A stretch of DNA of 64,000 bases from a candidate division WOR-3 bacterium (GTDB lineage: Bacteria > Hydrothermota > Tepidihabitantia > Tepidihabitantales > Tepidihabitantaceae): contig CBFGIY010000001.1 of NCBI GenBank assembly GCA_965648935.1, positions 40,216 through 104,215 on the forward strand, written 5' to 3'. Made by a program: the position numbers and the translations under genes. The notes below the pieces were generated by a model. That model did no database searches, was not told where the DNA came from, and saw only the letters and a list, made by a program, of their open reading frames with translations. The first letter of the stretch is position 1; each line of letters starts with the position of its first letter. This document shows positions 19,311-50,517 of this stretch, piece after piece.

Positions 19311-19814
19311 ATGGCAAACACAACTGACAACCTGAAGGCGGCATTCGCTGGCGAGAGCCAGGCCAACCGCCGCTACCTTGCCTTCGCGAAGAAGGCAGAC
19401 CAGCAGGGCCTGCCCGGCGTCGCGAAGCTCTTCCGCGCCGCGGCCGAGGCCGAAACCGTCCACGCCCACGCCCACCTGCGCGTGCTCGGCGGCGTCAAAG
19501 ACACGGCTGACAACCTCAAAGAGGCCATCGCCGGCGAGCACCACGAGTTCGCCTCGATGTACCCCGAGTTCCTCGCCGTGGCCAGGGCCGAGAACAACGT
19601 CGCCGCCCAGAAGAGCTTCGAGTTCGCCCTCGCCGTCGAGAAGATCCACCACCAGCTCTACTCCGAAGCGCTGGCCGCGGTCCAGTCGGGCAAGGACCTG
19701 CCCGCCGGCGAAATCTGGGTCTGCAGCGTCTGCGGCAACACGGTCCACGGCGCGCCGCCCGACAAGTGCCCGATCTGCGGCGTGGCCCGCGACAGATTCA
19801 CCCGCATCGACTGA
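19311..19814 (+). CDS. rbr: Rubrerythrin
   Basis: Ferritin-like diiron ExxH motifs (EAETVHAHAH, EHHEF, EKIHHQ) plus a C-terminal rubredoxin-like CSVCGN...CPICG. ATG 19311 is preceded by AAGGAGA. The track ORF starts at an upstream out-of-context Met. Confidence 0.85.
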   Translation: MANTTDNLKAAFAGESQANRRYLAFAKKADQQGLPGVAKLFRAAAEAETVHAHAHLRVLGGVKDTADNLKEAIAGEHHEFASMYPEFLAVARAENNVAAQKSFEFALAVEKIHHQLYSEALAAVQSGKDLPAGEIWVCSVCGNTVHGAPPDKCPICGVARDRFTRID

Positions 19815-19833
19815 CCCGGTCGGTCAAAAAGAA

Positions 19834-19855
19834 GGCGGGCCCGCGCGGGCCCGCC
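19834..19855. terminator. Bidirectional intrinsic terminator hairpin between convergent genes
   Basis: Perfect palindrome GGCGGGCCCGCGCGGGCCCGCC. On the minus-strand transcript it is followed by TTCTTTTTGACC, and on the plus strand by TTGCGTTCT. Confidence 0.6.
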
Positions 19856-19874
19856 TTGCGTTCTGCGGTCAGCT

Positions 19875-20195
19875 TCAGTCGAAATCCAGCGCGGCCTCCG
19901 GCCCGTTCTCGGCCGGTTCGACGCGCACGCCCGCGGGCAGCCCGGCGACCGCCTCATCGCCCGGGGCCGAAAGCGCGGCCGCGTCGCGCCGCGAGCGCGC
20001 CGCCGCGATCCGCTCCAGCGCGTCGCTGATTATCCGCACCCGCGTGTCGGCCGCGGCGCGGCGGTTGATGATGATCATCCAGCAGTCGCGCAGCCGGCAC
20101 ATCCCGCCCTCGCCCTGCACGTCGTCGTACACCAGCCTGATGCCCTGCTCGCGGCAGGCCTGCTCCAGCCCCAGAAGCCTCTTCTTCGGAGTCAT
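19875..20195 (-). CDS. Small hypothetical protein (~106 aa) translationally coupled to the epimerase
   Basis: ATG at 20195 overlaps the epimerase TGA as ATGA. The core is MTPKKRLLGLEQACREQGIRLVYDDVQGEGGMCRLRDCWMIIINRR and the tail is low-complexity. No family recognised. Confidence 0.4.
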   Translation of the reverse strand: MTPKKRLLGLEQACREQGIRLVYDDVQGEGGMCRLRDCWMIIINRRAAADTRVRIISDALERIAAARSRRDAAALSAPGDEAVAGLPAGVRVEPAENGPEAALDFD

Positions 20196-29717: not shown

Positions 29718-32228
29718 ATGCGAAGAACACTGGCTACCGTCCTCTTGCTCTCGGCCGCGGCTGCGGCCCTGCCGCCCATCTCCGACACCATCGACATCCG
29801 CGAGTGGATTGTCGGCGGGCCGTTTCCGGCCGCGCCGCGCGAAGGAATAGTCCCGGTCATCGACGACGCGGCGACGTTCCGGCCCGCGGTCGGCGACACG
29901 TACTACTCCGGCCTCGTGCAGGGCGGCGTCACGCTTGCCCGCAAGGTCACGGTCGACTCGCTTGGCTGGCTTGCGACCGACTGGCAGGGCGTGCGCTGGG
30001 ACACGCTACAGGACTACTACGGCAACGTCGGGCTCTACTGCTCCGGCTTTGCCTATGCCGAGTTCGCCTCGCCGCGCGCCGGCCGCGCCGTCGCGGTCGC
30101 GACCGAACTGGGCGGGTTCACGCTCAATGGCCGCGGCTACACCGGCGACGCATACGGCGCGGGCTGGTTTGCCTGCCCGGTCGAGCTGGACTCGGGTCTC
30201 AACCGCGTGCTGTTGCGGCTGGCCAGCTTCGGCGACGACCGCGTGCGGTTTCGGCTCGTGCCGGTGCCGGCCGACGTGCGCACGGTCAGTGCCGATGCGA
30301 CCCGCCCCGACCTCGTGGCCGACTCCGCGCTGGACGCCTGGCTCGGTCTGCCGGTCCAGAACCTGTCGTCATCATCGCTGAAAAGAGTCTCCGTACGCGT
30401 ACTTTTCGCCGACAGCGCGGTCGGCCACACGACGGTTGACCTGCCCGCATATGGCGCGCGCAAGCTGCCCGTCCGAATCCGGCTGCCGCGCCAGCCCTGG
30501 GACAGCGCGCACAAGTCCCTGCCGCTCGTGGTCGAGACGCGCCTCGGCGACTCGGTCGCGTCCAGCGAAACACTGCAGCTCGACATCCGCCGGCCCGACG
30601 AGGTCCGCCGTGTCACGTTCCTTTCCGCCATCGACTCCTCGGTGCAGTACTACGCGGTGCTCTACCCGAGGGATTTCGACCCGGCGCGGCGCTACCCGGT
30701 GATTTACACCCTGCACGGCGCCGGGGTCGAGGCCGACGGCCAGGCCCGGGCGTACAAGCAGAAAGACTGGGCGTTCGTGGTCGCGCCGACCAACCGCCGC
30801 AAGTACGGCTTCGACTGGCAGGACTGGGGACGCCTCGACGCCATCGAGGTGCTCGACACGATTCTCGCCCGCCTGCCCATCGACCCGGACCGCGTCCTGC
30901 TCGTGGGCGGCTCAATGGGCGGCCACGGCACCTGGCACGTCGGCCTGACTCACCCTGACCGGTTCGCGGTCGCCTCGCCCCAGGCCGGCTGGCCCACGCA
31001 CCAGCTCTACGTGCCGTGGTTCCTCCAGCGCAGTGCCATCTTTGCCCAGCCAAGCGCGCTGGCGATCCGCGACCGGGTCCTGCGCTCGGACAACACCGCG
31101 GCGCTGCTTGAGAACGCGCTCAACCTGCCGTACTTCATCCTGCACGGCGGCGACGACGACAACGTGCCGCCCCTGCACGCGCGCAACTTCAAGATGTGGG
31201 CCGACGAACTCGGACTCGACGTCACTCTGCGCGAGGTGCCGGGCCGCGGCCACTGGTATGTCTACGAGGACCTCGACCTCACCTGCGTCGACGACACCGC
31301 GCTGATGAACTTCATCCGCGACCGGCGCCGCGACCCCGGCCCGCGCCGCGTCCGGTTCCGCACCGCCGACCTCGGCACCGCGCATGCATCCTACTGGGTC
31401 GCTATCGACCGCGTGGGCGTGGTCGGGCAGGACGCCGTGATTGACGCTTGGGCTGGTGACTCGCTGGTGCGGGTGACGACGCAGAATGTTGACCAGTTCG
31501 CGCTGAAGCTCGACGGCGCGCCGTTCTTTGCCGGACCGGTCCGTGTCGAGATTGACGGTGCGCGCGTCGGCGGCAGACTGGCACCGCCAGGCCGGTTCAC
31601 GTTTCACCGCAAGGACGGCAGGTGGCGCTTCGGCCCGAACTGGCTCCGGGGCCTTGCCAAGACCCCGGCGCAGTACGGCCCGGCGCGTCAGGTACTGATG
31701 CGGCCGTTCGCGCTGGTCTTTGGCACGCGCGACACCGCGCTGGCCCGCGACCTTGCCCATGCCGCTACTCAGGAAGCCCTGCGCTGGTGGCTGATAGGCA
31801 ACGGCGATGCGCCGGTACTGGCCGACACCGCGGTCACCGACAGCCTGCTCTCCCGGCGCAACGTCGTGCTCTTCGGCGGGCCCGCTCAGAACTCGGTCAC
31901 CGCCCGCATCGCCGCGCAGTTGCCCTGCCGGCTGGAATCAGGCCGGCTTGATTTCGCCGGCCGCGACCTCGGCGACAGCGCGGCCGCGGTGTTTGTCCGA
32001 CCCAGCCCGTTCAATCCCGAACGGCTGGTGCTCGTGCGGATGGGTACTGACGCGGCCGCGACCCGGCTGGCCGCGGCCTGGGGATTTGCCTACTCCGGCG
32101 CGGGCGCGCCTGACTTCGTCGTGTTTGACCGGCGCTGGCGCCGGCGCGGCTGGGCCGGGGTCCGCGCCGCCGGGTTCTTTGACTCCTACTGGCGCGTTGA
32201 CCCGCGCTCGTCGTTCTTCGAACGCTAG
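29718..32228 (+). CDS. Secreted alpha/beta-hydrolase-fold serine hydrolase (S9 peptidase/esterase-like), 836 aa
   Basis: Signal peptide MRRTLATVLLLSAAAAA. It has a nucleophile elbow LLVGGSMGGHG and a His-containing block PGRGHWY, flanked by beta-rich domains. Confidence 0.65.
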   Translation: MRRTLATVLLLSAAAAALPPISDTIDIREWIVGGPFPAAPREGIVPVIDDAATFRPAVGDTYYSGLVQGGVTLARKVTVDSLGWLATDWQGVRWDTLQDYYGNVGLYCSGFAYAEFASPRAGRAVAVATELGGFTLNGRGYTGDAYGAGWFACPVELDSGLNRVLLRLASFGDDRVRFRLVPVPADVRTVSADATRPDLVADSALDAWLGLPVQNLSSSSLKRVSVRVLFADSAVGHTTVDLPAYGARKLPVRIRLPRQPWDSAHKSLPLVVETRLGDSVASSETLQLDIRRPDEVRRVTFLSAIDSSVQYYAVLYPRDFDPARRYPVIYTLHGAGVEADGQARAYKQKDWAFVVAPTNRRKYGFDWQDWGRLDAIEVLDTILARLPIDPDRVLLVGGSMGGHGTWHVGLTHPDRFAVASPQAGWPTHQLYVPWFLQRSAIFAQPSALAIRDRVLRSDNTAALLENALNLPYFILHGGDDDNVPPLHARNFKMWADELGLDVTLREVPGRGHWYVYEDLDLTCVDDTALMNFIRDRRRDPGPRRVRFRTADLGTAHASYWVAIDRVGVVGQDAVIDAWAGDSLVRVTTQNVDQFALKLDGAPFFAGPVRVEIDGARVGGRLAPPGRFTFHRKDGRWRFGPNWLRGLAKTPAQYGPARQVLMRPFALVFGTRDTALARDLAHAATQEALRWWLIGNGDAPVLADTAVTDSLLSRRNVVLFGGPAQNSVTARIAAQLPCRLESGRLDFAGRDLGDSAAAVFVRPSPFNPERLVLVRMGTDAAATRLAAAWGFAYSGAGAPDFVVFDRRWRRRGWAGVRAAGFFDSYWRVDPRSSFFER

Positions 32229-36560: not shown

Positions 36561-36947
36561 TTGAATCACTACGAAATCGCTCTGGTCATAAACCCCGACG
36601 TGCCCGAGAAGGAAGTCGAGAAGATCGCGCAGGAGACGCGCGACCTGCTCGCCGGGATGCAGGCCGCGGTAGCCAGCACCAAGGTAGAGCGCCGCTCGCT
36701 CGCCTACCCCATCAAGCGCTGGACCGAGGCCTACTACGTCTTCATCGAGTGCGACGCGCCCGGCTCGATGCCCCAGGCCATCCGCCACGAGCTCAGGCAC
36801 CGCGAGGGCCTCATCCGGATGGGCTTCGTCAACAAGCCGCTCCAGCCCGAGATGCCCGCTCCCGAGCCGCCCGCAGTCGAGCCCGCCCCGGCGCCCGAAG
36901 CCGAGCAGTTTGAGCCTGAACCAGTGCCCGAGGCCGACAATGCCTGA
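36561..36947 (+). CDS. rpsF: 30S ribosomal protein S6
   Basis: N-terminal HYEIALVINPD, with a Pro/Glu-rich tail. TTG start. Confidence 0.8.
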   Translation: MNHYEIALVINPDVPEKEVEKIAQETRDLLAGMQAAVASTKVERRSLAYPIKRWTEAYYVFIECDAPGSMPQAIRHELRHREGLIRMGFVNKPLQPEMPAPEPPAVEPAPAPEAEQFEPEPVPEADNA

Positions 36948-39230: not shown

Positions 39231-39925
39231 TCGCGGTCGAGCTTGTACCCGACGCCGCGCACGTTCTTCAGCAACGCGCCGGCCCGGCCCAGCTTGCGCC
39301 GGAGATTGGTGATGTGGACATCGACCGTCCGGTCGATGACCGACTTGTCGTGCCCCCAGAGCCGGTTGAGGATTTCGTCACGCGAGTGCACCCAGCCCGG
39401 GTGTTCGGCGAGAATGCCGAGGATGCGGAACTCGGTGGTGGTCAGGCTAACCGGCCGGCCGTCGACGGTTGCCTCGAACCGCTTGTCGTCAATCGCCAGG
39501 CCCGGGGCGACCTCACGCGGCGCGCCCGGCCGGGGTGCCTCGCGCCGGCGCAGTACCGCCTTCACCCGGGCCTCGAGCTCGCGCGGCGAGAACGGCTTGG
39601 TGATGTAGTCGTCGGCGCCGAGTTCAAGCCCCAGCACCTTGTCTGTCTCCCCTGCCCGGGCCGTAAGCATCACCACCGGCACATCGGCGGTACGCGGCTC
39701 GGCGCGCAGCCGGCGGCATATCTCCATCCCGTCGGCGTCGGGCAACATCAGGTCCAGAAGCAGCAGGTCGGGCAGGTTGTCGTCAAGCCAGCGGTAGAAC
39801 GGCTCGGCCTCGGCGAACTCGACCGTGCGGAACCCGGCGCGCTCTAGCGTGCCCGACACAAGTTCGAGCAGGTCGGGCTCGTCGTCGACTATGGCGACGA
39901 GGCGGCTAGCTGTCTTGCTGGTCAA
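39227..39925 (-). CDS. phoB: Phosphate regulon response regulator PhoB (OmpR family)
   Basis: REC domain (VAIVDDEPD...LLLLDLMLPDADG) plus a winged-helix domain. A TTG start at 39925 is inferred; the track's upstream Met would lie inside phoU. It overlaps the phoU 3' end by 20 nt. Confidence 0.75.
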   Translation of the reverse strand: MTSKTASRLVAIVDDEPDLLELVSGTLERAGFRTVEFAEAEPFYRWLDDNLPDLLLLDLMLPDADGMEICRRLRAEPRTADVPVVMLTARAGETDKVLGLELGADDYITKPFSPRELEARVKAVLRRREAPRPGAPREVAPGLAIDDKRFEATVDGRPVSLTTTEFRILGILAEHPGWVHSRDEILNRLWGHDKSVIDRTVDVHITNLRRKLGRAGALLKNVRGVGYKLDRE

Positions 39926-41418: not shown

Positions 41419-42327
41419 CTACACCTGCCAGCTGTTGGTCCGGGCGATGCGCATCCGTATCGCGAAGGCGATCGCGTCAAAGAAGAGCACCGCGACGAGC
41501 AGGACGATGGCGGTGCCGAAAGCCAGGGGCCGGACCTGCATGATCTTGTCATGCTGGGTCGCCAGAGTGAAAAGGTGATAGGGCAGGGCCATGAACTTGC
41601 TCGAAAGCGACGTCGGCAACTGCCGCGTGTAGTAGGTCACGCCGGTGAACAGTATCGGCGCGGTCTCGCCGATGGTGCGGGCCAGCGCGAGCAGCGCGCC
41701 GGTCAGTATTCCCGGGAACGCATAGGGCAACACGTTCTTGCGTATCGCCTCCCAGCGGGTCGCGCCCAGGGCCAGCGCGCCCTCACGGAACGACGAAGGT
41801 ATCGCAGTGATCGCCTCTTCCGCGGTCGTGATGATCCAGGGCAGGTTCATCAAACCGAGCGTCAGGCCCGACGCGATGATCGACATCCCCAGGCGCAGGC
41901 TCGACACGAACAGCGCGACACCGAAAAGGCCGTACACGATGGAAGGTATCCCGGCGAGGCTGCGGATCGCCGAGCGCAAGAGCCGCGTGAACAGGTTGGC
42001 CGGCGCGTACTCGGAAAGGTATATTCCCGAGCAGACACCGACCGGTATCGAAAACGCGAGCGAAATGAACGTCACGAAAGCCGTGCCGACCACGCAGGGC
42101 AGGATGCCGCCCGCAGTCATTCCTTCCAGCGGCGGCTTGCTCAGGAACTCCCACGACAGCACCCCGGCGCCGTTGCGGAAGAGATAGAAAAACATGAAGG
42201 CGATGAACGCGATGAACAGGAACAGCGGCACCGCGAGCACGATGAACAGCGCGCTCGACGCGAACCGGGCGCGGCGCAGCCGGGCCTGACCCTCCGGGCT
42301 GCGGGCAGCAGGACTCGAATCGCTCAT
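41419..42327 (-). CDS. pstA: Phosphate ABC transporter permease PstA
   Basis: Start MSDSSPAARS overlaps the pstC stop as ATGA. The EAA-loop region is ALGATRWE. The upstream extension in the track ORF overlaps pstC and was rejected. Confidence 0.85.
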   Translation of the reverse strand: MSDSSPAARSPEGQARLRRARFASSALFIVLAVPLFLFIAFIAFMFFYLFRNGAGVLSWEFLSKPPLEGMTAGGILPCVVGTAFVTFISLAFSIPVGVCSGIYLSEYAPANLFTRLLRSAIRSLAGIPSIVYGLFGVALFVSSLRLGMSIIASGLTLGLMNLPWIITTAEEAITAIPSSFREGALALGATRWEAIRKNVLPYAFPGILTGALLALARTIGETAPILFTGVTYYTRQLPTSLSSKFMALPYHLFTLATQHDKIMQVRPLAFGTAIVLLVAVLFFDAIAFAIRMRIARTNSWQV

Positions 42328-43211
42328 AGCATGAAGCTCCGTTTCTCGCGCCGGATGAGCGCTTCGGCCAGCAGGTTGGTGCCCAGGGTAATGGCGAAAA
42401 GCACCAGACCGAGCGCGAACAGCGCGTAGTAGTGCGTCGTGAAGAACGGAGTCTCGCCCAGCTCGATGGCGATGGTCGTCGTTATGGTGCGCGTCGCGTC
42501 GAACAGCGACCTGGGCATGTGCGGCGCATTGCCCGCCACCATCAGCACCGCCATCGTCTCGCCCACGGCCCGGCCAAACCCGAGCATGCACCCGGCAAGG
42601 ATGCCCGACTTGGCCGCGGGCAGCACCACACGCGTTGCCGTGGTCCAGGGCGTTGCGCCCAGCGCCGCGGCCGCCTCGCGGTAGGAGTGGGGCACGACGC
42701 GCAACGCGTCGTCCGAAACCGATATGATGGTCGGCAGCGCCATCAAGGCAAGTAGCACCCCGGCATTGAGAATGTTCAATCCGGACGGCACGTTGAACAG
42801 CCGAGCGATGAGCGGCGCGACCACGACCAGACCGAAGAATCCGAGGACCACCGACGGAAACCCCGCGAAGAGCTCGACCATCGTCTTGACCATCACCCGC
42901 ACCCAGCCGCGTAGCCGCTCCGAGATGAACACCGCGCTGGCGATCCCCAGCGGCACCGCAATCACAAGGGCCAGTGCCGTGGTCACCAGGCTGCCGACCA
43001 GCAGCGGCAGCAGGCCGTAGCTCGGCTCGCCGTAGGCATCCGGGTTCCAGACCGTGCCGAACAGGAACCTGGCGACGCTCGTTTCGCGAAACGTCCGCAC
43101 TCCGTAAAGCGCGAGGAACGCAAGAATGCCGAGCAGCGTCGCCGACCCGATCAGTGCGTTGACGAAGAACACCGAACGGGCGGTGCGGTCGGCAAGACGG
43201 CGGGTGTTCAT
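42324..43211 (-). CDS. pstC: Phosphate ABC transporter permease PstC
   Basis: Six TM segments and the EAA motif EAAAALGATPW. Confidence 0.85.
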   Translation of the reverse strand: MNTRRLADRTARSVFFVNALIGSATLLGILAFLALYGVRTFRETSVARFLFGTVWNPDAYGEPSYGLLPLLVGSLVTTALALVIAVPLGIASAVFISERLRGWVRVMVKTMVELFAGFPSVVLGFFGLVVVAPLIARLFNVPSGLNILNAGVLLALMALPTIISVSDDALRVVPHSYREAAAALGATPWTTATRVVLPAAKSGILAGCMLGFGRAVGETMAVLMVAGNAPHMPRSLFDATRTITTTIAIELGETPFFTTHYYALFALGLVLFAITLGTNLLAEALIRREKRSFML

Positions 43212-43250
43212 TTGATTAGCGGCGCGGCGCCTCCCGCCGCGCCCGGTTTG

Positions 43251-44108
43251 TCACTTCAGCTTCGCGTTGTTCTTCTCGACCCAGTCCCTCGTGACCGGCA
43301 GGAAGCCCTCTTCCTCGACTATCCTCTGCCCGGCCGGGCTGAGCTCGAACTCGATGAACGCCTTGACCGCGCCCTTGGGCTTGCCGTTGGTGTACTGGAA
43401 CAGCGCCCGGGTCAGCGGGTAGTTGCCCGACTTCACGAGATTGTCGTCCAGCGGCGACACGTAGGTCTTGCCGTCGCGCGACAGGCTCACCGGCTTGACT
43501 CCGGTCATTTCTTTGAGGTAGCCCAGGCCGACGTAACCGACGCCGCCGAGGTCGGCCTTCACGCCCTCGATTATCTGGGCGTTGCCGTTCATCTGGCGCA
43601 TCGCCGCCGAATACTCCGCCTTCACGACCTCGTCGCGGAAGAACACGAAAGTGCCCGAGGAAGGCTGGCGCCCGTAGAGCGTTATCTTGCGGTCCGGCCC
43701 GCCGACTTCCTTCCAGTTCTTGATCGTGCCGCGGTAGATCTTGGCAAGCTGGTCCATCGTCAGCTTCTCGACGGTGTTCGAGGAATTGACGATCACCGAC
43801 AGCCCGTCGATGGCGATCGCAAACTCGGTGATGTTGACGCCGTTGGCCCGCGCCGTGCCGATTTCCTTCGACTTGATCGGGCGCGACGCGTTGGCGATGT
43901 CGGCCTCGCGGTTGGATATCGCGTTGATGCCCACGCCCGAGCCGCCGCCGGTGATGGACACCGTGGCGTCGGCCCTGGTCGCGCTGAACGCCTCGGCCAG
44001 CCGCTGGGTCAGGTTGAGCATCGTGTCTGAACCCTTGACCAGTATCTCACCGGCCAGGGCGGTGCCGGCCAGGGCGGCCAGGGCGAGCAGTGTGCCGAAT
44101 CTCTTCAT
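43251..44108 (-). CDS. pstS: Phosphate-binding protein PstS
   Basis: ATG 44108 has an AAGGAGA RBS. The signal peptide is MKRFGTLLALAALAGTALA, and there is a GSDT/SGS binding motif. Confidence 0.85.
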   Translation of the reverse strand: MKRFGTLLALAALAGTALAGEILVKGSDTMLNLTQRLAEAFSATRADATVSITGGGSGVGINAISNREADIANASRPIKSKEIGTARANGVNITEFAIAIDGLSVIVNSSNTVEKLTMDQLAKIYRGTIKNWKEVGGPDRKITLYGRQPSSGTFVFFRDEVVKAEYSAAMRQMNGNAQIIEGVKADLGGVGYVGLGYLKEMTGVKPVSLSRDGKTYVSPLDDNLVKSGNYPLTRALFQYTNGKPKGAVKAFIEFELSPAGQRIVEEEGFLPVTRDWVEKNNAKLK

Positions 44109-44130
44109 TTCGTCTCCTTGGTTCGGTTGC

Positions 44131-45318
44131 CTAAATCTCGGGCGGCGGCACGTGCGCGACCCACTCGAACCGGAACTGGGCCATGAACGTGTCCTTCGGG
44201 TCCACGCCTTCCTTGCGCGACATCTCGCGCGACCAGGCAAGCTGGAGCGCGGCCCCGGGCCGCCCGCCGGCGCGGCGGTAGAAGTGCCAGTTGGCCCCGG
44301 CCCCGATGCGCGAGAAGCTCGCGCCGAGATTGACCGGCATCGAATCTCCGGACTGCTCCTTGCGCTCCCAGGTCGAGAACCGGCCCCACGCTTCGAGCCT
44401 GCGCCCGAGCAGCGTCACGACCGGCATCACGTCGAACCCGCCCATCGCATAGTCCTTGGTCTTGGTCTCAAGTGTCGAGTCGATGAGGACGTTGGCCGTA
44501 TCGTAGACGAGCTTGTACTGGCTGAAGGAACGGGTGTAATTGTAGCCGACATAGCTGCCCAGCACATAGACCGGGCCGACCGCAACGCGGACCATCGGGC
44601 TGAACGCGAGACGCTTGGTGTTGGCGGTGTCGGGCATCAGCCTGAGCTTGTTGTCGCTCGAGCGCTTGCCCCCGGCGACATCGTTCTTGTACAGCGATAT
44701 GTCGCGCTCGTGGGTGAAGACCGAGCCGCCGAACTGCAGACCCGGGAACGGGGTCAGGCGCAGGTTGGCCAGCAGCTCGGGGGCCGTGCCGACGAACTTG
44801 CCCGCCATCTTGTAGCCCTCGCCGTTGTACACGCCGAGCTGAAGCTCGCCCAGACCCGAGGGCAGGAAACCGTTGACCGTGATACCGTAGTCGGCGCTCG
44901 AACACACGCCGCGGTCGTCAATCAGGTCCTTGTCCGGGTTCAGGTAGTCCCACGAATAGATGAGCCCGAAGTAGTGCTTCTGCAGGCCCGCGGTCAGCAG
45001 GAAGTCGGGCAGGAAGGGAATGGCGAAGTCCATGTAGCCTTCCTTCAGCCGCACGGTCGAGCCCTCGGTGTACTTGTCGGACGAGAACATGTCGACCGTG
45101 AACTTGGAGTACAGCGCCGGGGTCCAGCGGTGCGCCAGCCGGATGTAGCCGCGCTCCAGCGCGAACCGGCTGACACTCGGGTCGGTGATACTGAAGTTCG
45201 TGGACTGGTTCGTGTAGCGGAACCAGCCGTTCATCTCCAACTGAGTATGGCCCGGATCCTGGGCCAGTGCGCCTGCTGCCGCGATAGCGAGCAGCACGAT
45301 TACAGCGGTCGTTTTCAC
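44131..45318 (-). CDS. Phosphate-selective porin O/P-like outer-membrane beta-barrel
   Basis: Signal peptide, alternating amphipathic beta-strands, and an aromatic terminus FRFEW. It is the first gene of the Pho cluster. Confidence 0.65.
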   Translation of the reverse strand: MKTTAVIVLLAIAAAGALAQDPGHTQLEMNGWFRYTNQSTNFSITDPSVSRFALERGYIRLAHRWTPALYSKFTVDMFSSDKYTEGSTVRLKEGYMDFAIPFLPDFLLTAGLQKHYFGLIYSWDYLNPDKDLIDDRGVCSSADYGITVNGFLPSGLGELQLGVYNGEGYKMAGKFVGTAPELLANLRLTPFPGLQFGGSVFTHERDISLYKNDVAGGKRSSDNKLRLMPDTANTKRLAFSPMVRVAVGPVYVLGSYVGYNYTRSFSQYKLVYDTANVLIDSTLETKTKDYAMGGFDVMPVVTLLGRRLEAWGRFSTWERKEQSGDSMPVNLGASFSRIGAGANWHFYRRAGGRPGAALQLAWSREMSRKEGVDPKDTFMAQFRFEWVAHVPPPEI

Positions 45319-46997: not shown

Positions 46998-48740
46998 ATG
47001 CTGATTCAGGGCACCAATCTCCACAAGTCCATCGGCGCACAGGCCGTGCTTGCCGGTGTCTCGTTTGTCGTCAACCGCGGCGACAAGGTCGGCGTCGTCG
47101 GCCCGAACGGCTCGGGCAAGACCACGCTGCTGCGCATCGTGAAGCGCGAGATCGAACCGGACGATGGCGAGCTGGTGTTTGCCGGCCGGCCAGAAATCGG
47201 CTACTTCCGGCAGGACGTACTCGCCGACAGCGGGACGACGGTGTATTCGGCCGTGCTCGGCGAGATGGAGAACGTCCAGAAGCGCATCGACTCGGTGCGG
47301 CGCGAGCTGGAAGAGGACCCCGAGGATGAGGCCGCGCTGGTCAAGCTCGAGGCTTTCGAAGAGGAGATGGACGCGCGGTTCGGCCCGGACTTCCGCAGCC
47401 GCGCCGAGAAAGCCCTGGCCGGGCTGGGTTTCGGCAGGGAACGGTACGGGGACGCGGTCGCGGCGATCTCGCCGGGCGAGCGGGCCCGGCTGGAGATGGC
47501 ACGCATTCTCATCGGCCAGCCCGAGCTGCTGCTGCTGGATGAGCCGACCAACTACCTCGACGTCGGCCAGCGCGAGTGGCTCGAACATTACCTGGAGGAC
47601 TACAAGGGCACGGTACTGGTCGTGTCGCACGACCGCGTGTTCCTCAACGAGGTCGCCAACCGGATTTTCGAGCTGCGGCGCGGCAGGCTGAAGACCTGCG
47701 AGGGCGGGTACGACGACTATATCTTCGAGCGCGAGCAGGAACAGCAGCGCGCCGTGCGCGAGCACGACGAGCACAGGAAGGAAATCGCCAAGCTTGACCG
47801 GATTGCCCGGCGCCAGGACGCGTGGTCGGCGCGCAAGGAGAAGACCAAGACAGCGGCCGCTGATTCAGGCTTCGTCTCGGCCGCGGCCGCGCGGCTGGCC
47901 CGGCGCGGTAAGCAGGCCAGGCGGCGCATCGAAGCGGCCATCGAGGAGCACGAGGGCAAGACCCCGTTTGTCGAGAAGAAGCCCGCGCCGGTCATCTACA
48001 GCGCGGTCGAGCCCGGGCGCCGGGCAGTCCTGGTCAAGGGCCTGACCAAGAGCTTCGGCCGGCGCTGCGTGGTGAAGGACGCCGGGTTCGAGATTCGCAC
48101 CGGCGAGCGCGTGGCTCTGGTCGGGCCGAACGGCTGCGGCAAGACCGTGCTGGTGCGGATGCTCGTCGGCGAACTGAAGCCGGACAAGGGCACGGTGACC
48201 CCGGGCGCGGCCGCGAAGGTCGGCTACTTCCCGCAGGACCTCGGCACGCTCGACCTCGACTGCACCGCGGTCGAGGAGGTGATGAAGTCCGGGGTGACGC
48301 AGGAGACCGCGCGCACCGTGCTCGGCACGCTGTTGCTGCCCAAGGACTTTGCCGAGCGCCGGCTCCGCGACCTGTCGGCCGGGGAACGTTCGAAGGTGCT
48401 GCTCGCGCGGGTTCTGGCGGGCGGCGCCGACTTCCTCGTGCTCGACGAGCCTACCAACCATCTCGACATCGACGCGCTGCTCGCGCTGGAGTCGCTGCTC
48501 GTTTCGTTCCTGGGCGCGATTCTCTTCACCTCGCACGACCGGGCTCTGCTCGACAAGCTCGCGGGCCGCGTGCTTGAACTGCGCGATGGCCGGCTCACCG
48601 ACTTTCCGGGCGGCTGGCAGGCGTTTCAGGCGCAAAGCTCCCGACAGCAAGCCCCGGTTTCCAGACCCCAGACGCCGATTCCCGGGTCGAAGGCACGCGG
48701 GCCCAAGACCCGGACTCCACAGAACAAAGCGCGCAGGTAG
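46998..48740 (+). CDS. ABC-F family ATPase (translation-associated, Uup/YheS/EttA-like)
   Basis: Two complete ABC cassettes (GPNGSGKTT...LSPGERARL...LLDEPTNYLD, and GPNGCGKT...LSAGERSKV...VLDEPTNHLD) with a coiled-coil linker, no TM, and a basic C-terminal tail. Confidence 0.85.
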   Translation: MLIQGTNLHKSIGAQAVLAGVSFVVNRGDKVGVVGPNGSGKTTLLRIVKREIEPDDGELVFAGRPEIGYFRQDVLADSGTTVYSAVLGEMENVQKRIDSVRRELEEDPEDEAALVKLEAFEEEMDARFGPDFRSRAEKALAGLGFGRERYGDAVAAISPGERARLEMARILIGQPELLLLDEPTNYLDVGQREWLEHYLEDYKGTVLVVSHDRVFLNEVANRIFELRRGRLKTCEGGYDDYIFEREQEQQRAVREHDEHRKEIAKLDRIARRQDAWSARKEKTKTAAADSGFVSAAAARLARRGKQARRRIEAAIEEHEGKTPFVEKKPAPVIYSAVEPGRRAVLVKGLTKSFGRRCVVKDAGFEIRTGERVALVGPNGCGKTVLVRMLVGELKPDKGTVTPGAAAKVGYFPQDLGTLDLDCTAVEEVMKSGVTQETARTVLGTLLLPKDFAERRLRDLSAGERSKVLLARVLAGGADFLVLDEPTNHLDIDALLALESLLVSFLGAILFTSHDRALLDKLAGRVLELRDGRLTDFPGGWQAFQAQSSRQQAPVSRPQTPIPGSKARGPKTRTPQNKARR

Positions 48741-48796
48741 CGGCAATCGGCTGAGCAGAAGCCGGGCCGCGCGGTCTTATGTCAGATGGACAGGAT

Positions 48797-48932
48797 CGAT
48801 GAGGTATGCCGAGGGGGTGGAGGTGCACTGCGGCGGGCAGGACCCGCCGCAGCCAAATCCCCACTGATGAGGCATGCTGATGGGGTGGAGGTGCACTGCG
48901 GCGGGCAGAACCCGCCGCAGCCAAATCCCCAC
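48797..48932. repeat. Two tandem 68-bp direct repeats derived from the 3' end of the adjacent tRNA-Leu, each with a 10-bp GC hairpin
   Basis: The unit is TGATGAGG(Y)ATGC(C/T)GA(G/T)GGGGTGGAGGTGCACTGCGGCGGGCAG(G/A)ACCCGCCGCAGCCAAATCCCCAC. In the tRNA sense each unit ends CACCTCCACCCC(C/A)TC(G/A)GCA, which is the tRNA variable-arm and acceptor 3' sequence with the T-arm deleted. The hairpin is CTGCGGCGGG-N5-CCCGCCGCAG. Confidence 0.7.
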
Positions 48933-48940
48933 TGATGATG

Positions 48941-49024
48941 TATGCCGAGGGGGGGATTTGAACCCCCATGGAGGTGAGTCCACTAACTCCTGAGGCTAGC
49001 GCGTCTGCCATTTCCGCCACCTCG
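48941..49024 (-). tRNA. tRNA-Leu (anticodon CAG)
   Basis: The 84-nt type-II tRNA is GCCGAGGTGGCGGAAATGGCAGACGCGCTAGCCTCAGGAGTTAGTGGACTCACCTCCATGGGGGTTCAAATCCCCCCCTCGGCA. It is near-identical in architecture to E. coli tRNA-Leu(CAG), with a 7-bp acceptor, anticodon loop CTCAGGA and a long variable arm. Confidence 0.85.
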
Positions 49025-49098
49025 GCAGTCACGGATTGTCGGGCGCGGTAAGGATAGCCGGCCGGGTCGGTCAGTCAAGCATACCCGACGAGAACGCC

Positions 49099-49126
49099 GC
49101 GGCGGGCAGGTTGCCCTGCCCGCCGC
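49099..49126 (-). terminator. GC hairpin (12-bp stem) downstream of pmbA; member of the same hairpin family as the tRNA-Leu repeats
   Basis: GCGGCGGGCAGG-TTGC-CCTGCCCGCCGC. It shares the GCGGCGGGCAGG arm with the 68-bp repeats. Confidence 0.5.
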
Positions 49127-49140
49127 GCAGAGATTGCGGT

Positions 49141-50517
49141 CTAGAAGCTGTCGGCCACGTCGTTGATGCGAACCTCGTCGCAGAGCAGGTACTCGGGCAC
49201 GCTGATTGCGTTGGGCGAGCGCCGGTCATAGGTGCCGGAAACGTTGACGGGCACGGTTTTCGAACTGACCGCGACGACGTGGTTGAGCACGCTCGGTATC
49301 TCGTCGGTCACGCGGGTCGAGAACAGGGGCGCGGTCAGCGTTCCCTTCTCGACGCGCATCGCGTTGAACCGCGATGAGCCGGTGAACATCCCTTTTGTCG
49401 GGTCGGGCAGGTGGATGTAGTGCAGGTGCGGGATGAACAGCGCGTCACCCGCGAGCTTGAGCCCGGCCTCGATGCCGGCCGGCGCGGAACCGGGCAGCAT
49501 CGCCGCGTCGACCTGGCCGTCGTGGCCGGTGGGCTTGCGGCCGTACTTGGCCGCGGTGACGCTGTCGTACATCACGTTGCGGAAGATTCCGTTCTCGACG
49601 AGCACGAAGCGCGACCGGCGCATGCCGTTGAAGTCGAAGGGCATCCCGAAGCAGTCCGGGTTGGCCGGGTCGTCGACGATGGAGATGGCCTCGCCGAAGA
49701 GCTTGTCGCCGAACTTGAGATTCGCGGTGAAAGCGCGCTTCTCCTCGAAGCTGCGGCCGAAGAAGCCGCCCCAGACCGACAGCATGACCAGTTCGGCCAC
49801 GGCCTGGCCCGCGAACAGCACGCGCTGGCGGCCGATGGCCGTCTTGTACCCGGGGTTCTTCTCGTAGACCGGCAACCGGGCGCTGAGTTCTTCGATGATG
49901 TCGGCCGCGCTGAAACTGCCGGCCGCTTTCTGGGTGCGCTCGGCCGAGAGCTCCCACTTCCTGTCCTGCTCCTTGAGCACGATGACGAGCTTGCCGTCGG
50001 TCAGCCGCCGGTACGCTTCGTTGTCGTTGGCGGTGCTGATCACGTACATCTCGGTCGCGCCGGTGGACCAGGACCCGGAGAAGTCGTACTTGCCGCGCGG
50101 CTTGAGTTCCTTGATGACCTCGGCGCAGAGCGCGGTCTTGGCCTCGGGCGAGAGCGCCTCGAGCGCCGGGTCGTAGCCGGTCGAGTCGTCGACCGTCTCC
50201 TGCACGGTGCAGAATATCGGGTCGTAGTCCTTGGGCACCGCCGCGGCGCAGGCGGCCCGCGCCCGCTCGATCGCGTCGTCGAGCACGGTGCGCGAGGAGA
50301 TGTCCGCGGTCAGCGAGTAGGAACCGGTGCGGCGGCCGTCGGTCACGCCGACATCGAGCCGGGTGAGCTGTTCGCCGGTCGAGAGCGCGACCGACGAGTT
50401 GCCCAGTCGGATGAGCGAGGACTTCTCGCGGTGGAAGTTGAACTCGGCCTGCACTCCCGCCTTGCGGCAGCGGTCGCGGGCCTCGAGCAGCAGTTCGCGG
50501 ATGCGATTGTCGAGCAT
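49141..50517 (-). CDS. pmbA: Metalloprotease PmbA/TldE (TldD/PmbA family)
   Basis: PmbA/TldD fold throughout, about 458 aa. It lies immediately downstream of tldD. Confidence 0.8.
   Translation of the reverse strand: MLDNRIRELLLEARDRCRKAGVQAEFNFHREKSSLIRLGNSSVALSTGEQLTRLDVGVTDGRRTGSYSLTADISSRTVLDDAIERARAACAAAVPKDYDPIFCTVQETVDDSTGYDPALEALSPEAKTALCAEVIKELKPRGKYDFSGSWSTGATEMYVISTANDNEAYRRLTDGKLVIVLKEQDRKWELSAERTQKAAGSFSAADIIEELSARLPVYEKNPGYKTAIGRQRVLFAGQAVAELVMLSVWGGFFGRSFEEKRAFTANLKFGDKLFGEAISIVDDPANPDCFGMPFDFNGMRRSRFVLVENGIFRNVMYDSVTAAKYGRKPTGHDGQVDAAMLPGSAPAGIEAGLKLAGDALFIPHLHYIHLPDPTKGMFTGSSRFNAMRVEKGTLTAPLFSTRVTDEIPSVLNHVVAVSSKTVPVNVSGTYDRRSPNAISVPEYLLCDEVRINDVADSF

What the first reader, a model, noticed from the sequence alone, without database searches (positions are those of the whole stretch)
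48780..49126. tRNA-Leu(CAG) followed by two 68-bp tandem copies of a T-arm-deleted tRNA 3' fragment, each with a GC hairpin also found at the pmbA terminator
Immediately 3' of tRNA-Leu are two direct repeats. Read in the tRNA sense, each ends …CACCTCCACCCC(C/A)TC(G/A)GCA. That is the tRNA variable-arm and acceptor 3' strand, with the T-arm precisely missing.

Each repeat carries the 10-bp-stem hairpin CTGCGGCGGG-N5-CCCGCCGCAG. A third hairpin shares the arm GCGGCGGGCAGG. It sits on the other side of the tRNA, at 49099-49126, as the apparent pmbA terminator.

This resembles serial att-site duplications left by tRNA-targeting integrative elements. It could also be a small REP/MITE-like family that copies tRNA ends, or a stack of tRNA-like terminators.
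Basis: seen in the sequence. Interest (0 to 1): 0.5.

Follow-up and report, generated by a model that had tools for sequence, protein, structure and literature searches.

The report
tRNA-linked repeats behind tRNA-Leu
Behind a leucine tRNA gene of an uncultivated WOR-3 bacterium, a 68-base module (strong hairpin plus a copy of the tRNA's own tail) is repeated in tandem, the same layout as the obscure "tRNA-linked repeats" of E. coli; it is a modest curiosity, not a mobile-element scar.

Summary
tRNA-Leu(CAG) lies on the minus strand at 48943-49026. It is followed by a 68-bp unit present 2.3 times (48798-48953), each unit with a 10-12-bp GC hairpin. A related hairpin sits behind pmbA (49098-49127).

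"T-arm deleted" is probably a misalignment. In four related genomes the unit's end aligns collinearly with the tRNA's last 21 nt, from the T-loop to the discriminator, plus the trailer.

Among five close WOR-3 lineages the copy number is 0, 1, 2, 2(+1 decayed) and at least 2. Units are 76-90% identical between genomes, while neighbouring spacers are 34-49% identical. No integrase, island or attP-like match was found. No second locus turned up in the window or in a strict scan of 185,579 genomes.

The architecture matches E. coli tRNA-linked repeats (TLRs, e.g. "178 bp x 3.14" behind tyrT). There is no sequence homology: Rfam RtT hits the E. coli control but not these units.

Best reading: a locus-bound TLR-type terminator/processing module. 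Its copy number changes by unequal recombination between the 14-20-nt direct repeats. Its function is inferred, not shown.

Verdict: new member of a known but poorly understood kind; interest about 0.3.

The parts
49141..50517 (-). PmbA/TldD-family metallopeptidase gene, upstream neighbour on the same strand as the tRNA
   Evidence: Pfam PF19289, E = 1e-31. Homologues are named WOR-3 TldD-related proteins.
49098..49127 (-). GC hairpin 14 nt after the pmbA stop codon (13-bp perfect stem, 4-nt loop); apparent pmbA terminator, related in sequence to the unit hairpins
   Evidence: - (I4) gives the arms; folds at -34.2 kcal/mol, z = -5.5.
- The stems are conserved in L001, L002 and L031 while the loops differ.
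- It aligns to the unit hairpin with one 7-nt indel.
49051..49078 (-). Promoter-like site for tRNA-Leu: TTGACT (49078-49073), 16 nt, TATCCT (49056-49051)
   Evidence: Consensus scan. The boxes are identical or nearly identical in four genomes (9/9 and 7-9/9) while the spacers around them diverge. Function is inferred.
48943..49026 (-). tRNA-Leu(CAG), CCA not encoded
   Evidence: ARAGORN 48942-49027. Rfam tRNA 53.6 bits at 48943-49026.
48934..48963 (-). First, partial copy of the repeat: the tRNA's own last 21 nt (T-loop to discriminator, 48943-48963) plus the 9-nt trailer TACATCATC (48934-48942)
   Evidence: The TRF array runs into the tRNA up to 48953. Supported by the 20-mer family D2, the collinear alignment and the in-register 68-nt period in L002 (D1).
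48866..48933 (-). Proximal 68-bp unit. In tRNA sense: 5' flank AGTGGGGATTTGG (48921-48933), hairpin (48896-48920), pseudo-3' end TGCACCTCCACCCCATCAGCA (48875-48895), trailer TGCCTCATC (48866-48874)
   Evidence: Folds as a two-tier hairpin, -34.3 kcal/mol.
48798..48865 (-). Distal 68-bp unit. In tRNA sense: 5' flank (48853-48865), hairpin (48828-48852), pseudo-3' end TGCACCTCCACCCCCTCGGCA (48807-48827), trailer TACCTCATC (48798-48806)
   Evidence: Matches the tRNA end plus trailer at 19 of 20 positions (D2). Folds at -34.5 kcal/mol.
46998..48740 (+). Convergent ABC-F ATPase gene whose 3' end faces the repeats. It is a neighbour, not part of the module, because the module is kept in L002 where this gene is absent
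   Evidence: Pfam ABC_tran x2 plus ABC_tran_Xtn. L002 context.

Best explanation
**What it is.** This is a tRNA-linked repeat (TLR)-type array. The 3' flank of tRNA-Leu(CAG) is built from a 68-bp module. In tRNA sense, written from the end of one hairpin to the end of the next, the module consists of:
- a copy of the tRNA's last ~21 nt, from the T-loop to the discriminator, with three fixed changes in the T-loop part;
- the 9-nt genomic trailer;
- a 13-nt G-rich flank;
- a 10-12-bp GC hairpin.

Counting the tRNA's own 3' end as the first partial copy, the module is present 2.3 times.

**Distribution (shown).** The array is seen only at this locus. It is ancestral to a small WOR-3 clade. Copy number differs between lineages (0, 1, 2, about 3, at least 2).

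**How copy number changes (inferred).** Unequal recombination or replication slippage between the 14-20-nt direct repeats is the likely cause.

**How it works (inferred).** The module is co-transcribed with tRNA-Leu from the conserved TTGACT/TATCCT promoter. Each unit folds into a very stable two-tier hairpin that stops or stabilises the transcript. Where the ABC-F gene is present, the hairpin also insulates the tRNA from that convergent gene. The repeated junction of tRNA 3' end and trailer re-presents the tRNA's 3'-processing signal, so that units can be cut out as discrete hairpin RNAs. This has been proposed for E. coli RtT and RrB.
For: **1. Architecture.**
- Period 68, 2.3 copies, with the array starting inside the tRNA.
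- The unit ends are collinear with the tRNA's last 21 nt plus trailer, with 14 nt exact and 19 of 20 in the distal unit.
- L002 shows the same 68-nt period, in register into the T-loop (D1).

**2. Same layout as E. coli TLRs.**
[quoted passage not shown] There are 1-5 TLRs per locus (PMC8144298).
- I verified this on the MG1655 tyrT-tyrV sequence. Three 178-bp units each end in AATCCTTCCCCCACCACCA, an identity that starts in the T-loop. Each unit has an internal GC hairpin.

**3. Seen only behind tRNA-Leu.**
- An nhmmer profile of the unit finds only the two units in the window.
- The strict pattern has one true hit in GTDB genomes, the orthologous locus of GCA_965649225.1, with two matches both behind tRNA-Leu.
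- Of 14 tRNAs in all sequence held, only the clade's tRNA-Leu genes and E. coli tyrT/tyrV have their last 14 nt recurring downstream.

**4. Copy number in relatives.**
- L031 has one unit.
- L002 has two units plus a decayed third hairpin.
- The L032 lineage has at least two pseudo-ends about 130 nt apart, and its contigs break at the repeat.
- L001 has none.
- The PmbA identities place L002 outside the group of window, L001 and L031. The unit is therefore ancestral and was lost in L001.

**5. Constraint.**
- Units are 76-90% identical between genomes.
- Spacers around the promoter are 34% identical (window vs L002, 18/53) and 49% identical (window vs L031, 26/53).
- The module is retained in L002, where the convergent ABC-F gene is absent.

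**6. Structure.** Every unit folds into a lower 6-7-bp stem plus an upper 10-12-bp stem, at -32 to -41 kcal/mol and z about -3.
Against: - There are no expression data, so co-transcription, termination and processing are all inferred.
- The hairpins lack a U-tract. The consensus scan calls no intrinsic terminator here.
- There is no covariation in the stems. They are invariant, so structure is not independently supported.
- The units have no sequence or structure homology to the E. coli TLR family. Rfam RtT is found in the E. coli control but not here.
- E. coli TLRs occur at ten loci of one genome. Here only one locus is seen. My genome-wide pattern included the tRNA-Leu-specific part, so relatives behind other tRNAs would have been missed.
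- The exact identity to the tRNA proper is shorter than in E. coli: 11-13 nt plus 3 trailer nt, against 18-19 nt.
- Conservation of the pseudo-3' end could come from repeated homogenisation against the tRNA rather than from function.
Confidence: 0.6

Rival explanations
1. Neutral relic. The unit is a collapsed tandem duplicate of the whole tRNA-Leu cassette (pmbA terminator hairpin, promoter, tRNA). In the second copy the promoter and most of the tRNA were deleted. It has no function of its own beyond being another hairpin.
For: - The unit hairpin aligns to the pmbA terminator hairpin with one 7-nt indel (20 of 21 nt in the window). The same alignment continues into the tRNA 3' end. Scores beat dinucleotide shuffles, at z = 2.8-4.9.
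- All three GCGGCGGG hairpins of the window lie in this one locus.
- In L002 the distal third copy is visibly decaying (D2).
Against: - Units are far better conserved between genomes (76-90%) than neighbouring non-functional spacers (34-49%). A relic would have decayed at the spacer rate.
- The flanks GGGGATTTG and GTGCACCTCC are essentially invariant in five units from three genomes.
- This model explains the origin and is compatible with the best explanation. Only the 'no function' part is a true rival.
Confidence: 0.15
2. Trans-acting small RNA. The units are released from the tRNA-Leu precursor, as with the 3'ETS-leuZ sponge or RrA/B/F of E. coli. They then act by base pairing. Candidate pairing motifs are the invariant CACCUCC (identical to the anti-Shine-Dalgarno core) and GGGGAUUUG (a perfect complement of the tRNA's CAAAUCCCC).
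For: - The single-stranded or flank motifs are invariant, and not only the stem.
- GGGGATTTG is the exact reverse complement of the T-loop/T-stem 3' segment of this tRNA (direct reading).
- The E. coli TLR likewise carries GGGGAAGGAT, the complement of ATCCTTCCCC in its own 19-mer (sequence).
- tRNA- and rRNA-trailer sRNAs have precedents (PMC8144298).
Against: - There are no expression data and no target.
- In the predicted fold, CACCUCC is mostly paired in the lower stem.
- A 9-nt complementarity has a chance probability of order 0.02 for sequences of this size (my estimate).
- Most E. coli TLRs have no known function.
Confidence: 0.12
3. Serial att sites. The pseudo-3' ends are attR-type scars left by tRNA-targeting integrative elements that inserted and were later deleted.
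For: - Direct repeats of a tRNA 3' end that include the genomic trailer are what integration produces.
- The tRNA's 3' flank is a synteny breakpoint in the clade. ABC-F is present or absent, a PF05635 gene is inserted in L001, and other genes occupy the site in L024.
Against: - No integrase or island lies in or next to the array. The flanking genes are ABC-F and a pst operon.
- The sequences between the repeats are copies of one another and only 48 nt long.
- The pseudo-ends lack the 5' half of the T-stem. A T-loop att core would need both half-sites (established knowledge of tRNA att sites).
- The tRNA T-arm-to-3'-end 32-mer is absent from viral contigs. The two matches to the pseudo-end pattern were not examined.
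- The L001 insertion has no repeat of the tRNA end at its far side.
Confidence: 0.08
4. REP/MITE-like dispersed element that happens to sit behind the tRNA.
For: It has a palindromic GC core with G-rich and C-rich flanks. A related hairpin also occurs at the pmbA terminator.
Against: - Only this locus is hit in 64 kb.
- Only the orthologous locus is hit in the related GTDB genome.
- Nothing real was found in the metagenome scans.
- The 33 viral hits to the core are one conserved phage coding sequence without the hairpin.
- There are no terminal inverted repeats or target-site duplications of transposon size.
Confidence: 0.04

Closest known systems
tRNA-linked repeats (TLRs) of Escherichia coli (Egan & Landy 1978; Rudd 1999; RtT RNA, Rfam RF00391; rrA/rrB/rrF), as summarised in PMC8144298
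   Same: - They lie immediately downstream of a tRNA (or 5S) gene, in the same orientation.
- They occur as 1-5 tandem copies, and the array starts inside the gene ('178 bp x 3.14' there, '68 bp x 2.3' here).
- Each unit ends with a copy of the gene's own 3' end, and that identity begins in the T-loop.
- Each unit has an internal GC hairpin.
- Each unit has a G-rich segment complementary to the T-stem 3' region.
- They are conserved among relatives.

Sources.
   Different: - There is no sequence or structure homology. RtT scores 133-138 bits on the E. coli units and gives no match here.
- The unit is 68 bp rather than about 100-178 bp.
- The copied tRNA segment is 11-13 nt exact plus trailer, rather than 18-19 nt including an encoded CCA.
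- Only one locus is seen, against ten loci in E. coli.
- The host is a candidate-phylum WOR-3 MAG.
3'ETS-leuZ and other sRNAs cut from tRNA/rRNA precursor trailers
   Same: It is a hairpin-containing trailer of a tRNA-Leu transcription unit and is conserved beyond what a terminator needs (PMC8144298).
   Different: No expression, processing or target evidence exists here. 3'ETS-leuZ is not a repeat and carries no copy of the tRNA end.
attL/attR duplications of tRNA 3' ends by integrative elements
   Same: Both give direct repeats of a tRNA 3' end that include flanking genomic bases.
   Different: The spacing is 48 nt with no cargo. There is no integrase and no attP match. The repeat lacks the 5' half of the T-stem.
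Tandem tRNA gene duplicates and tRNA pseudogene fragments
   Same: Part of the unit derives from the tRNA gene. The hairpin resembles the terminator that precedes the tRNA cassette.
   Different: Only the last ~21 nt of the tRNA are represented. The unit is conserved rather than decaying.

Membership tests
tRNA-linked repeats (TLR), architectural class | Located immediately downstream of a tRNA or rRNA gene, same orientation, inside the same apparent transcription unit | tested here: met
   The units start 9 nt after the discriminator, on the tRNA strand. No promoter-like site lies between the tRNA and the units. Co-transcription itself was not tested.
tRNA-linked repeats (TLR), architectural class | The 3' end of each repeat (18-19 bp in E. 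coli) is identical to the 3' end of the upstream gene | tested here: met
   - Distal unit: 14 nt exact (CCCCCTCGGCATAC) and 19 of 20 over the tRNA end plus trailer.
- Collinear similarity extends over the last 21 nt of the tRNA (18 of 21 plus one 1-nt indel).
- The proximal unit is 17 of 20 (85%).
- L002 and L031 behave the same way.
- The exact stretch is shorter than in E. coli.
tRNA-linked repeats (TLR), architectural class | One to five copies per locus; copy number is a property of the locus | tested here: met
   Two copies here. Counts in the four relatives are 0, 1, 2 (+1 decayed) and at least 2.
tRNA-linked repeats (TLR), architectural class | Family members at several tRNA/rRNA operons of one genome (ten loci in E. 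coli K-12) | tested here: inconclusive
   The two other tRNAs in the window (Arg, Gln) have no such repeat. The profile finds no other copy in 64 kb. The genome-wide pattern contained the tRNA-Leu-specific segment, so it could not detect members behind other tRNAs.
RtT RNA (Rfam RF00391), the E. coli TLR sequence family | Match to the RtT covariance model | tested here: not met
   There is no RtT match at E <= 1 in 48000-50000. There is none at the gathering threshold in L002 or L031. The same run finds four RtT copies (133-138 bits) at E. coli tyrT/tyrV.
att-site remnants of tRNA-integrating elements | Repeats flank, or once flanked, an element with an integrase; a matching attP exists in an element | tested here: not met
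   No integrase-like Pfam hit among the neighbouring genes. The spacers are 48 nt and are copies of each other. The tRNA T-arm-to-3'-end 32-mer has no match in viral contigs. The L001 insertion lacks a far-side repeat.
REP / MITE-like dispersed repeats | Many copies dispersed in intergenic regions of the same genome | tested here: not met
   Copies occur only at this locus in the window. Only the orthologous locus is hit in a related genome. The whole genome of this MAG could not be scanned.
Intrinsic (Rho-independent) terminator | GC-rich stem-loop followed by a U-tract | tested here: not met
   The stems are strong, but they are followed by UGCACCUCC in tRNA sense and CCAAAUCCCC in the opposite sense. 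The scan reports 0 terminator-like sites in 48300-49400.

The most novel reading that the evidence does not exclude
The TLR layout is a stable hairpin followed by a copy of the tRNA's own 3' end, preceded by a segment complementary to the T-arm's 3' half. On this reading it is a functional module, maintained by selection, that arose independently in Enterobacteria and in candidate phylum WOR-3. The duplicated 3' end lets the tRNA 3'-processing machinery release the trailer hairpins as discrete small RNAs, or act on them as decoys. Their dose would then be set by copy number and coupled to tRNA-Leu transcription.
Probability: 0.2. Interest if true: 0.55.

Novelty: new member of a known kind. 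Interest (0 to 1): 0.3.

Why it matters
TLRs have been known since 1978. They have been described only in E. coli and close relatives, and most still have no assigned function.

An independent, non-homologous instance in a deep-branching uncultivated phylum shows the same fine anatomy. It is also clearly better conserved than the neighbouring spacers. That argues the layout is more than an enterobacterial accident.

The layout may be a recurrent by-product of recombination at tRNA 3' ends, or a reusable way to make processed trailer RNAs. The finding suggests a simple genome-wide survey: look for recurrence of each tRNA's last 14 nt downstream of the gene.

It also has a practical side. Such arrays break short-read assemblies at tRNA genes, and they can be mistaken for att scars of integrated elements.

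Tried and rejected
1. **'T-arm-deleted tRNA fragment'.** I compared alignment schemes. The long-gap alignment wins only in the window. In L002, L031 and L032 only 5 nt match the variable arm, whereas the collinear alignment to the T-loop works in every unit. I rejected the long-gap reading as the less parsimonious one.

2. **attP search.** The tRNA 3' 32-mer gave no hit in viral contigs. The pseudo-end pattern gave 2 viral hits, which I did not examine.

3. **Core pattern in viral contigs.** GGGATTTG(N)CTGCGGCGGG gave 33 hits. All are one conserved phage coding sequence with no hairpin partner, so they are coincidental.

4. **Metagenome scans.**
   - The clade-specific tRNA-Leu 34-mer gave no hit.
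   - The pseudo-end pattern gave 7 hits. None is near a tRNA or has the hairpin, and their flanks look like ordinary coding sequence.

5. **GTDB scan.** Of 21 hits, 20 are single matches in unrelated taxa and were not examined further.

6. **Rfam.** Only the tRNA is credible. The mir-B6 matches (27-30 bits against a gathering score of 89) are an artefact of two GC hairpins.

7. **Small ORFs in the repeats.** Read by eye, there is a 24-aa Arg-rich ORF on the plus strand and a 31-aa ORF on the minus strand. Neither start codon is conserved in L031, and 68 is not a multiple of 3. I rejected them.

8. **Whole unit as a degenerate full-length tRNA** (D-arm resembling GTGGGGATTTGGC). This is suggestive by eye, but the local alignment prefers the pmbA-hairpin match. 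I did not pursue it.

9. **Covariation.** There is none, because the stems are invariant.

10. **Window PmbA look-up.** An exact look-up of the window's own PmbA in the contig index failed. The source assembly could therefore not be read beyond the window.

11. **BLAST of the E. coli TLR unit.** Searching it against E. coli genomes gave a median of 3 places per genome. That did not resolve how many loci share the core.
Full report
**1. The observation**

The window carries tRNA-Leu(CAG) on the minus strand. ARAGORN places it at 48942-49027. Rfam gives tRNA 53.6 bits at 48943-49026. CCA is not encoded.

Read in tRNA sense, the tRNA ends ...GGGGGTTCAAATCCCCCCCTCGGCA. Two units follow:
- TACATCATC | AGTGGGGATTTGG CTGCGGCGGGTTCTGCCCGCCGCAG TGCACCTCCACCCCATCAGCA
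- TGCCTCATC | AGTGGGGATTTGG CTGCGGCGGGTCCTGCCCGCCGCAG TGCACCTCCACCCCCTCGGCA TACCTCATC

Tandem Repeats Finder calls period 68, 2.3 copies and score 277 at 48798-48953. This is the strongest array in the window. The repeat finder gives the two 68-nt copies at 94% identity. It also gives three copies of the 20-mer made of the tRNA 3' end plus trailer, and two perfect 10-bp hairpins.

The third hairpin (49098-49127, 13-bp perfect stem) lies 14 nt after the stop of a PmbA/TldD-family gene. Between it and the tRNA there is a TTGACT-16-TATCCT promoter-like site.

None of this is chance. The 12-mer GCGGCGGGCAGG and the hairpin pattern occur only in this locus within 64 kb, against 0.10 expected for the pattern.

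**2. Context and organism**

The gene order, in tRNA sense, is tldD-like, pmbA-like, hairpin, promoter, tRNA-Leu, two units. After the units comes the 3' end of a convergent ABC-F ATPase gene (46998-48740, plus strand).

The nearest PmbA homologues are annotated as candidate division WOR-3 MAG proteins. No integrase or other mobile-element domain was found among the neighbours. Beyond ABC-F lie genes without Pfam matches and a pst-type phosphate transport operon.

**3. Relatives**

I recovered the orthologous locus from four close lineages and from several more distant ones.

| Locus | Source | Identity to window | What follows tRNA-Leu |
|---|---|---|---|
| L031 | JGI 3300037851 | PmbA 85.6% | One unit, then ABC-F |
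| L002/L021 | GCA_965649225.1 | PmbA 82.4% | Two units, also 68-nt period, plus a third decaying hairpin copy; no ABC-F |
| L032-L037 | Logan | ABC-F 85% | At least two pseudo-ends about 130 nt apart |
| L001 | GCA_046485245.1 | PmbA 87.4% | No unit |
| L024 | ENA ERZ27245470 | PmbA 71% | Ordinary hairpin with a U-rich tail |
| L027, L028, L046, L047 | various | PmbA 68-70% | No tRNA behind pmbA at all |

Some details on individual loci:
- In the Logan lineage, five of six contigs break exactly at CCGCCGCAGTGCACCTCC. This is expected for a repeat.
- In L001 the sequence diverges right after the discriminator. A 120-aa PF05635 gene sits there, with no repeat of the tRNA end at its far side.
- In L024 the tRNA-Leu has a different variable arm.

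The PmbA identity matrix places L002 outside the group of window, L001 and L031. The unit therefore predates the clade and was lost in L001. The two copies within a genome share loop sequences that differ between genomes. This means either independent duplications or concerted evolution.

**4. Is it dispersed?**

An nhmmer profile of five units finds only the two units in the window.

The strict pattern GCGGCGGG-N4-14-GCAGTGCACCTCC was run against one genome for each of 185,579 species. It hit one relevant contig, the L002 locus, twice. The other 20 hits were single matches in unrelated taxa.

The metagenome and viral scans gave nothing relevant.

There is one limit. The pattern included the part derived from tRNA-Leu. 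Related modules behind other tRNAs of the same genome would therefore have escaped. The window's two other tRNAs have none.

**5. What the unit is made of**

Across genomes this does not hold. With ordinary gap costs, every unit end aligns collinearly with the tRNA's last 21 nt plus trailer. GTTCAAATCCCCCCCTCGGCA aligns with GTGCACCTCC(A)CCCCCTCGGCA.

The long-gap alignment wins only in the window. It matches just 5 nt of the variable arm elsewhere. In L002 repeat finder extends the 68-nt register into the T-loop (D1).

The array is therefore '68 bp repeated 2.3 times, starting in the T-loop'.

The hairpin part resembles the pmbA terminator hairpin, differing by one 7-nt indel. Alignment scores beat shuffles at z = 2.8-4.9. 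This hints that the module arose from a local duplication of the tRNA cassette.

Each unit folds into a two-tier hairpin at -32 to -41 kcal/mol. The lower stem pairs the G-rich flank with CCUCCAC, which lies in the altered T-loop copy. The stems are invariant, so there is no covariation.

One feature remains unexplained. GGGGATTTG in the 5' flank is the exact complement of the tRNA's CAAATCCCC, which spans the T-loop and the T-stem 3' strand.

**6. Constraint**

Between genomes the units are 76-90% identical, and most differences are in the loop. Unconstrained spacers in the same alignment are much less conserved: 18/53 identical for window vs L002, and 26/53 for window vs L031. These spacers run from the stop codon to the hairpin, from the hairpin to the -35 box, between the -35 and -10 boxes, and across the trailer. 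The promoter boxes, the pmbA hairpin and the tRNA are conserved.

The module is kept in L002, where ABC-F is absent. Whatever maintains it is therefore tied to the tRNA.

**7. Comparison with what is known**

The layout is that of the tRNA-linked repeats of E. coli. PMC8144298 summarises them:
- There are 22 TLRs at ten loci, with one to five per locus.
- Most have no known function.
- rrA, rrB and rrF bind Hfq and CsrA.
- The authors suggest the repeated end is recognised by the same processing nuclease as the upstream gene.

I checked the classic case directly. At MG1655 tyrT-tyrV, three 178-bp units each end in AATCCTTCCCCCACCACCA. This identity starts in the T-loop. The units contain a GC hairpin and a diverged T-arm segment. 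They also carry GGGGAAGGAT, the complement of ATCCTTCCCC in the 19-mer.

Rfam's RtT model finds four copies there at 133-138 bits, but none in the WOR-3 loci. The WOR-3 array therefore meets the architectural definition of a TLR. It is not a member of the E. coli sequence family.

**8. Mechanism and rivals**

*Shown:* the anatomy, the restriction to this locus in the data available, the copy-number variation among relatives, and the elevated conservation.

*Inferred:*
- Copy number changes by unequal recombination or slippage between the 14-20-nt direct repeats.
- The units are co-transcribed with tRNA-Leu.
- The hairpins terminate or stabilise the transcript despite lacking U-tracts.
- The copied junction of tRNA end and trailer serves as a processing signal.

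*Rivals:*
- A functionless relic of a collapsed cassette duplication. This is compatible as an origin but is contradicted by the conservation.
- A trans-acting trailer sRNA. This is possible but untested.
- att scars. These are not supported.
- A REP/MITE family. This is not supported.

**9. Verdict**

It is best filed as a TLR-type array in a new phylum. It is a new member of a known but little-studied kind. Interest is about 0.3.

The most novel reading still open is that the TLR layout is a convergent, functional way to make processed trailer RNAs. I give that about 0.2 probability.

Noticed in passing
L001 5577-6065 (GCA_046485245.1): In this closest relative the sequence diverges from the rest of the clade exactly after the tRNA-Leu discriminator. 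A 120-aa PF05635 (23S_rRNA_IVP, four-helix-bundle) gene with a different hairpin occupies the place of the repeats. No copy of the tRNA end lies at the far side.
   Followed up: partly
window 48875-48895 and L002 5610-5632: The tRNA-proximal unit in both genomes carries TCAGC instead of TCGGC in the pseudo-acceptor strand, while the distal unit is intact. This is either a shared ancestral change that survived homogenisation or a recurrent mutation.
   Followed up: no
window 48853-48865 and 48921-48933 versus 48949-48957: GGGGATTTG in the unit's 5' flank is a perfect reverse complement of CAAATCCCC (T-loop plus T-stem 3' strand) of the adjacent tRNA-Leu. It is invariant in all five units of three genomes. 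The E. coli tyrT repeat has an analogous 10-nt complement of its own 19-mer.
   Followed up: partly
window 46998-48740; L001, L031, L032 orthologues: The ABC-F proteins end in length-variable K/P/Q/S-rich tails (578-604 aa), encoded by short GC-rich repeats (TGGGCTTTGGG...). In L002 this gene is absent from the locus. A GT2 gene lies there instead, followed by the same 395-aa/PstS/PstC genes as in window 41419-45318.
   Followed up: partly
L033-L037 (Logan contigs): Five independent short-read contigs all end at CCGCCGCAGTGCACCTCC. The repeat fragments assemblies at this tRNA locus.
   Followed up: yes
window 49051-49078 and orthologues: The promoter-like boxes CTTGACTGA and GCTATCCT upstream of tRNA-Leu are essentially invariant in four genomes, while the 12-nt spacer between them is free to vary (0-10 of 12 identical).
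   Followed up: partly
window 19807-19882: An imperfect palindrome with 42-nt arms (74% complementary) is the longest inverted repeat in the window.
   Followed up: no
window 30662-30721, 36854-36906, 39494-39551: Three other short tandem duplications (periods 24-29, two copies each) were reported by Tandem Repeats Finder. I did not check whether they lie in coding sequence.
   Followed up: no
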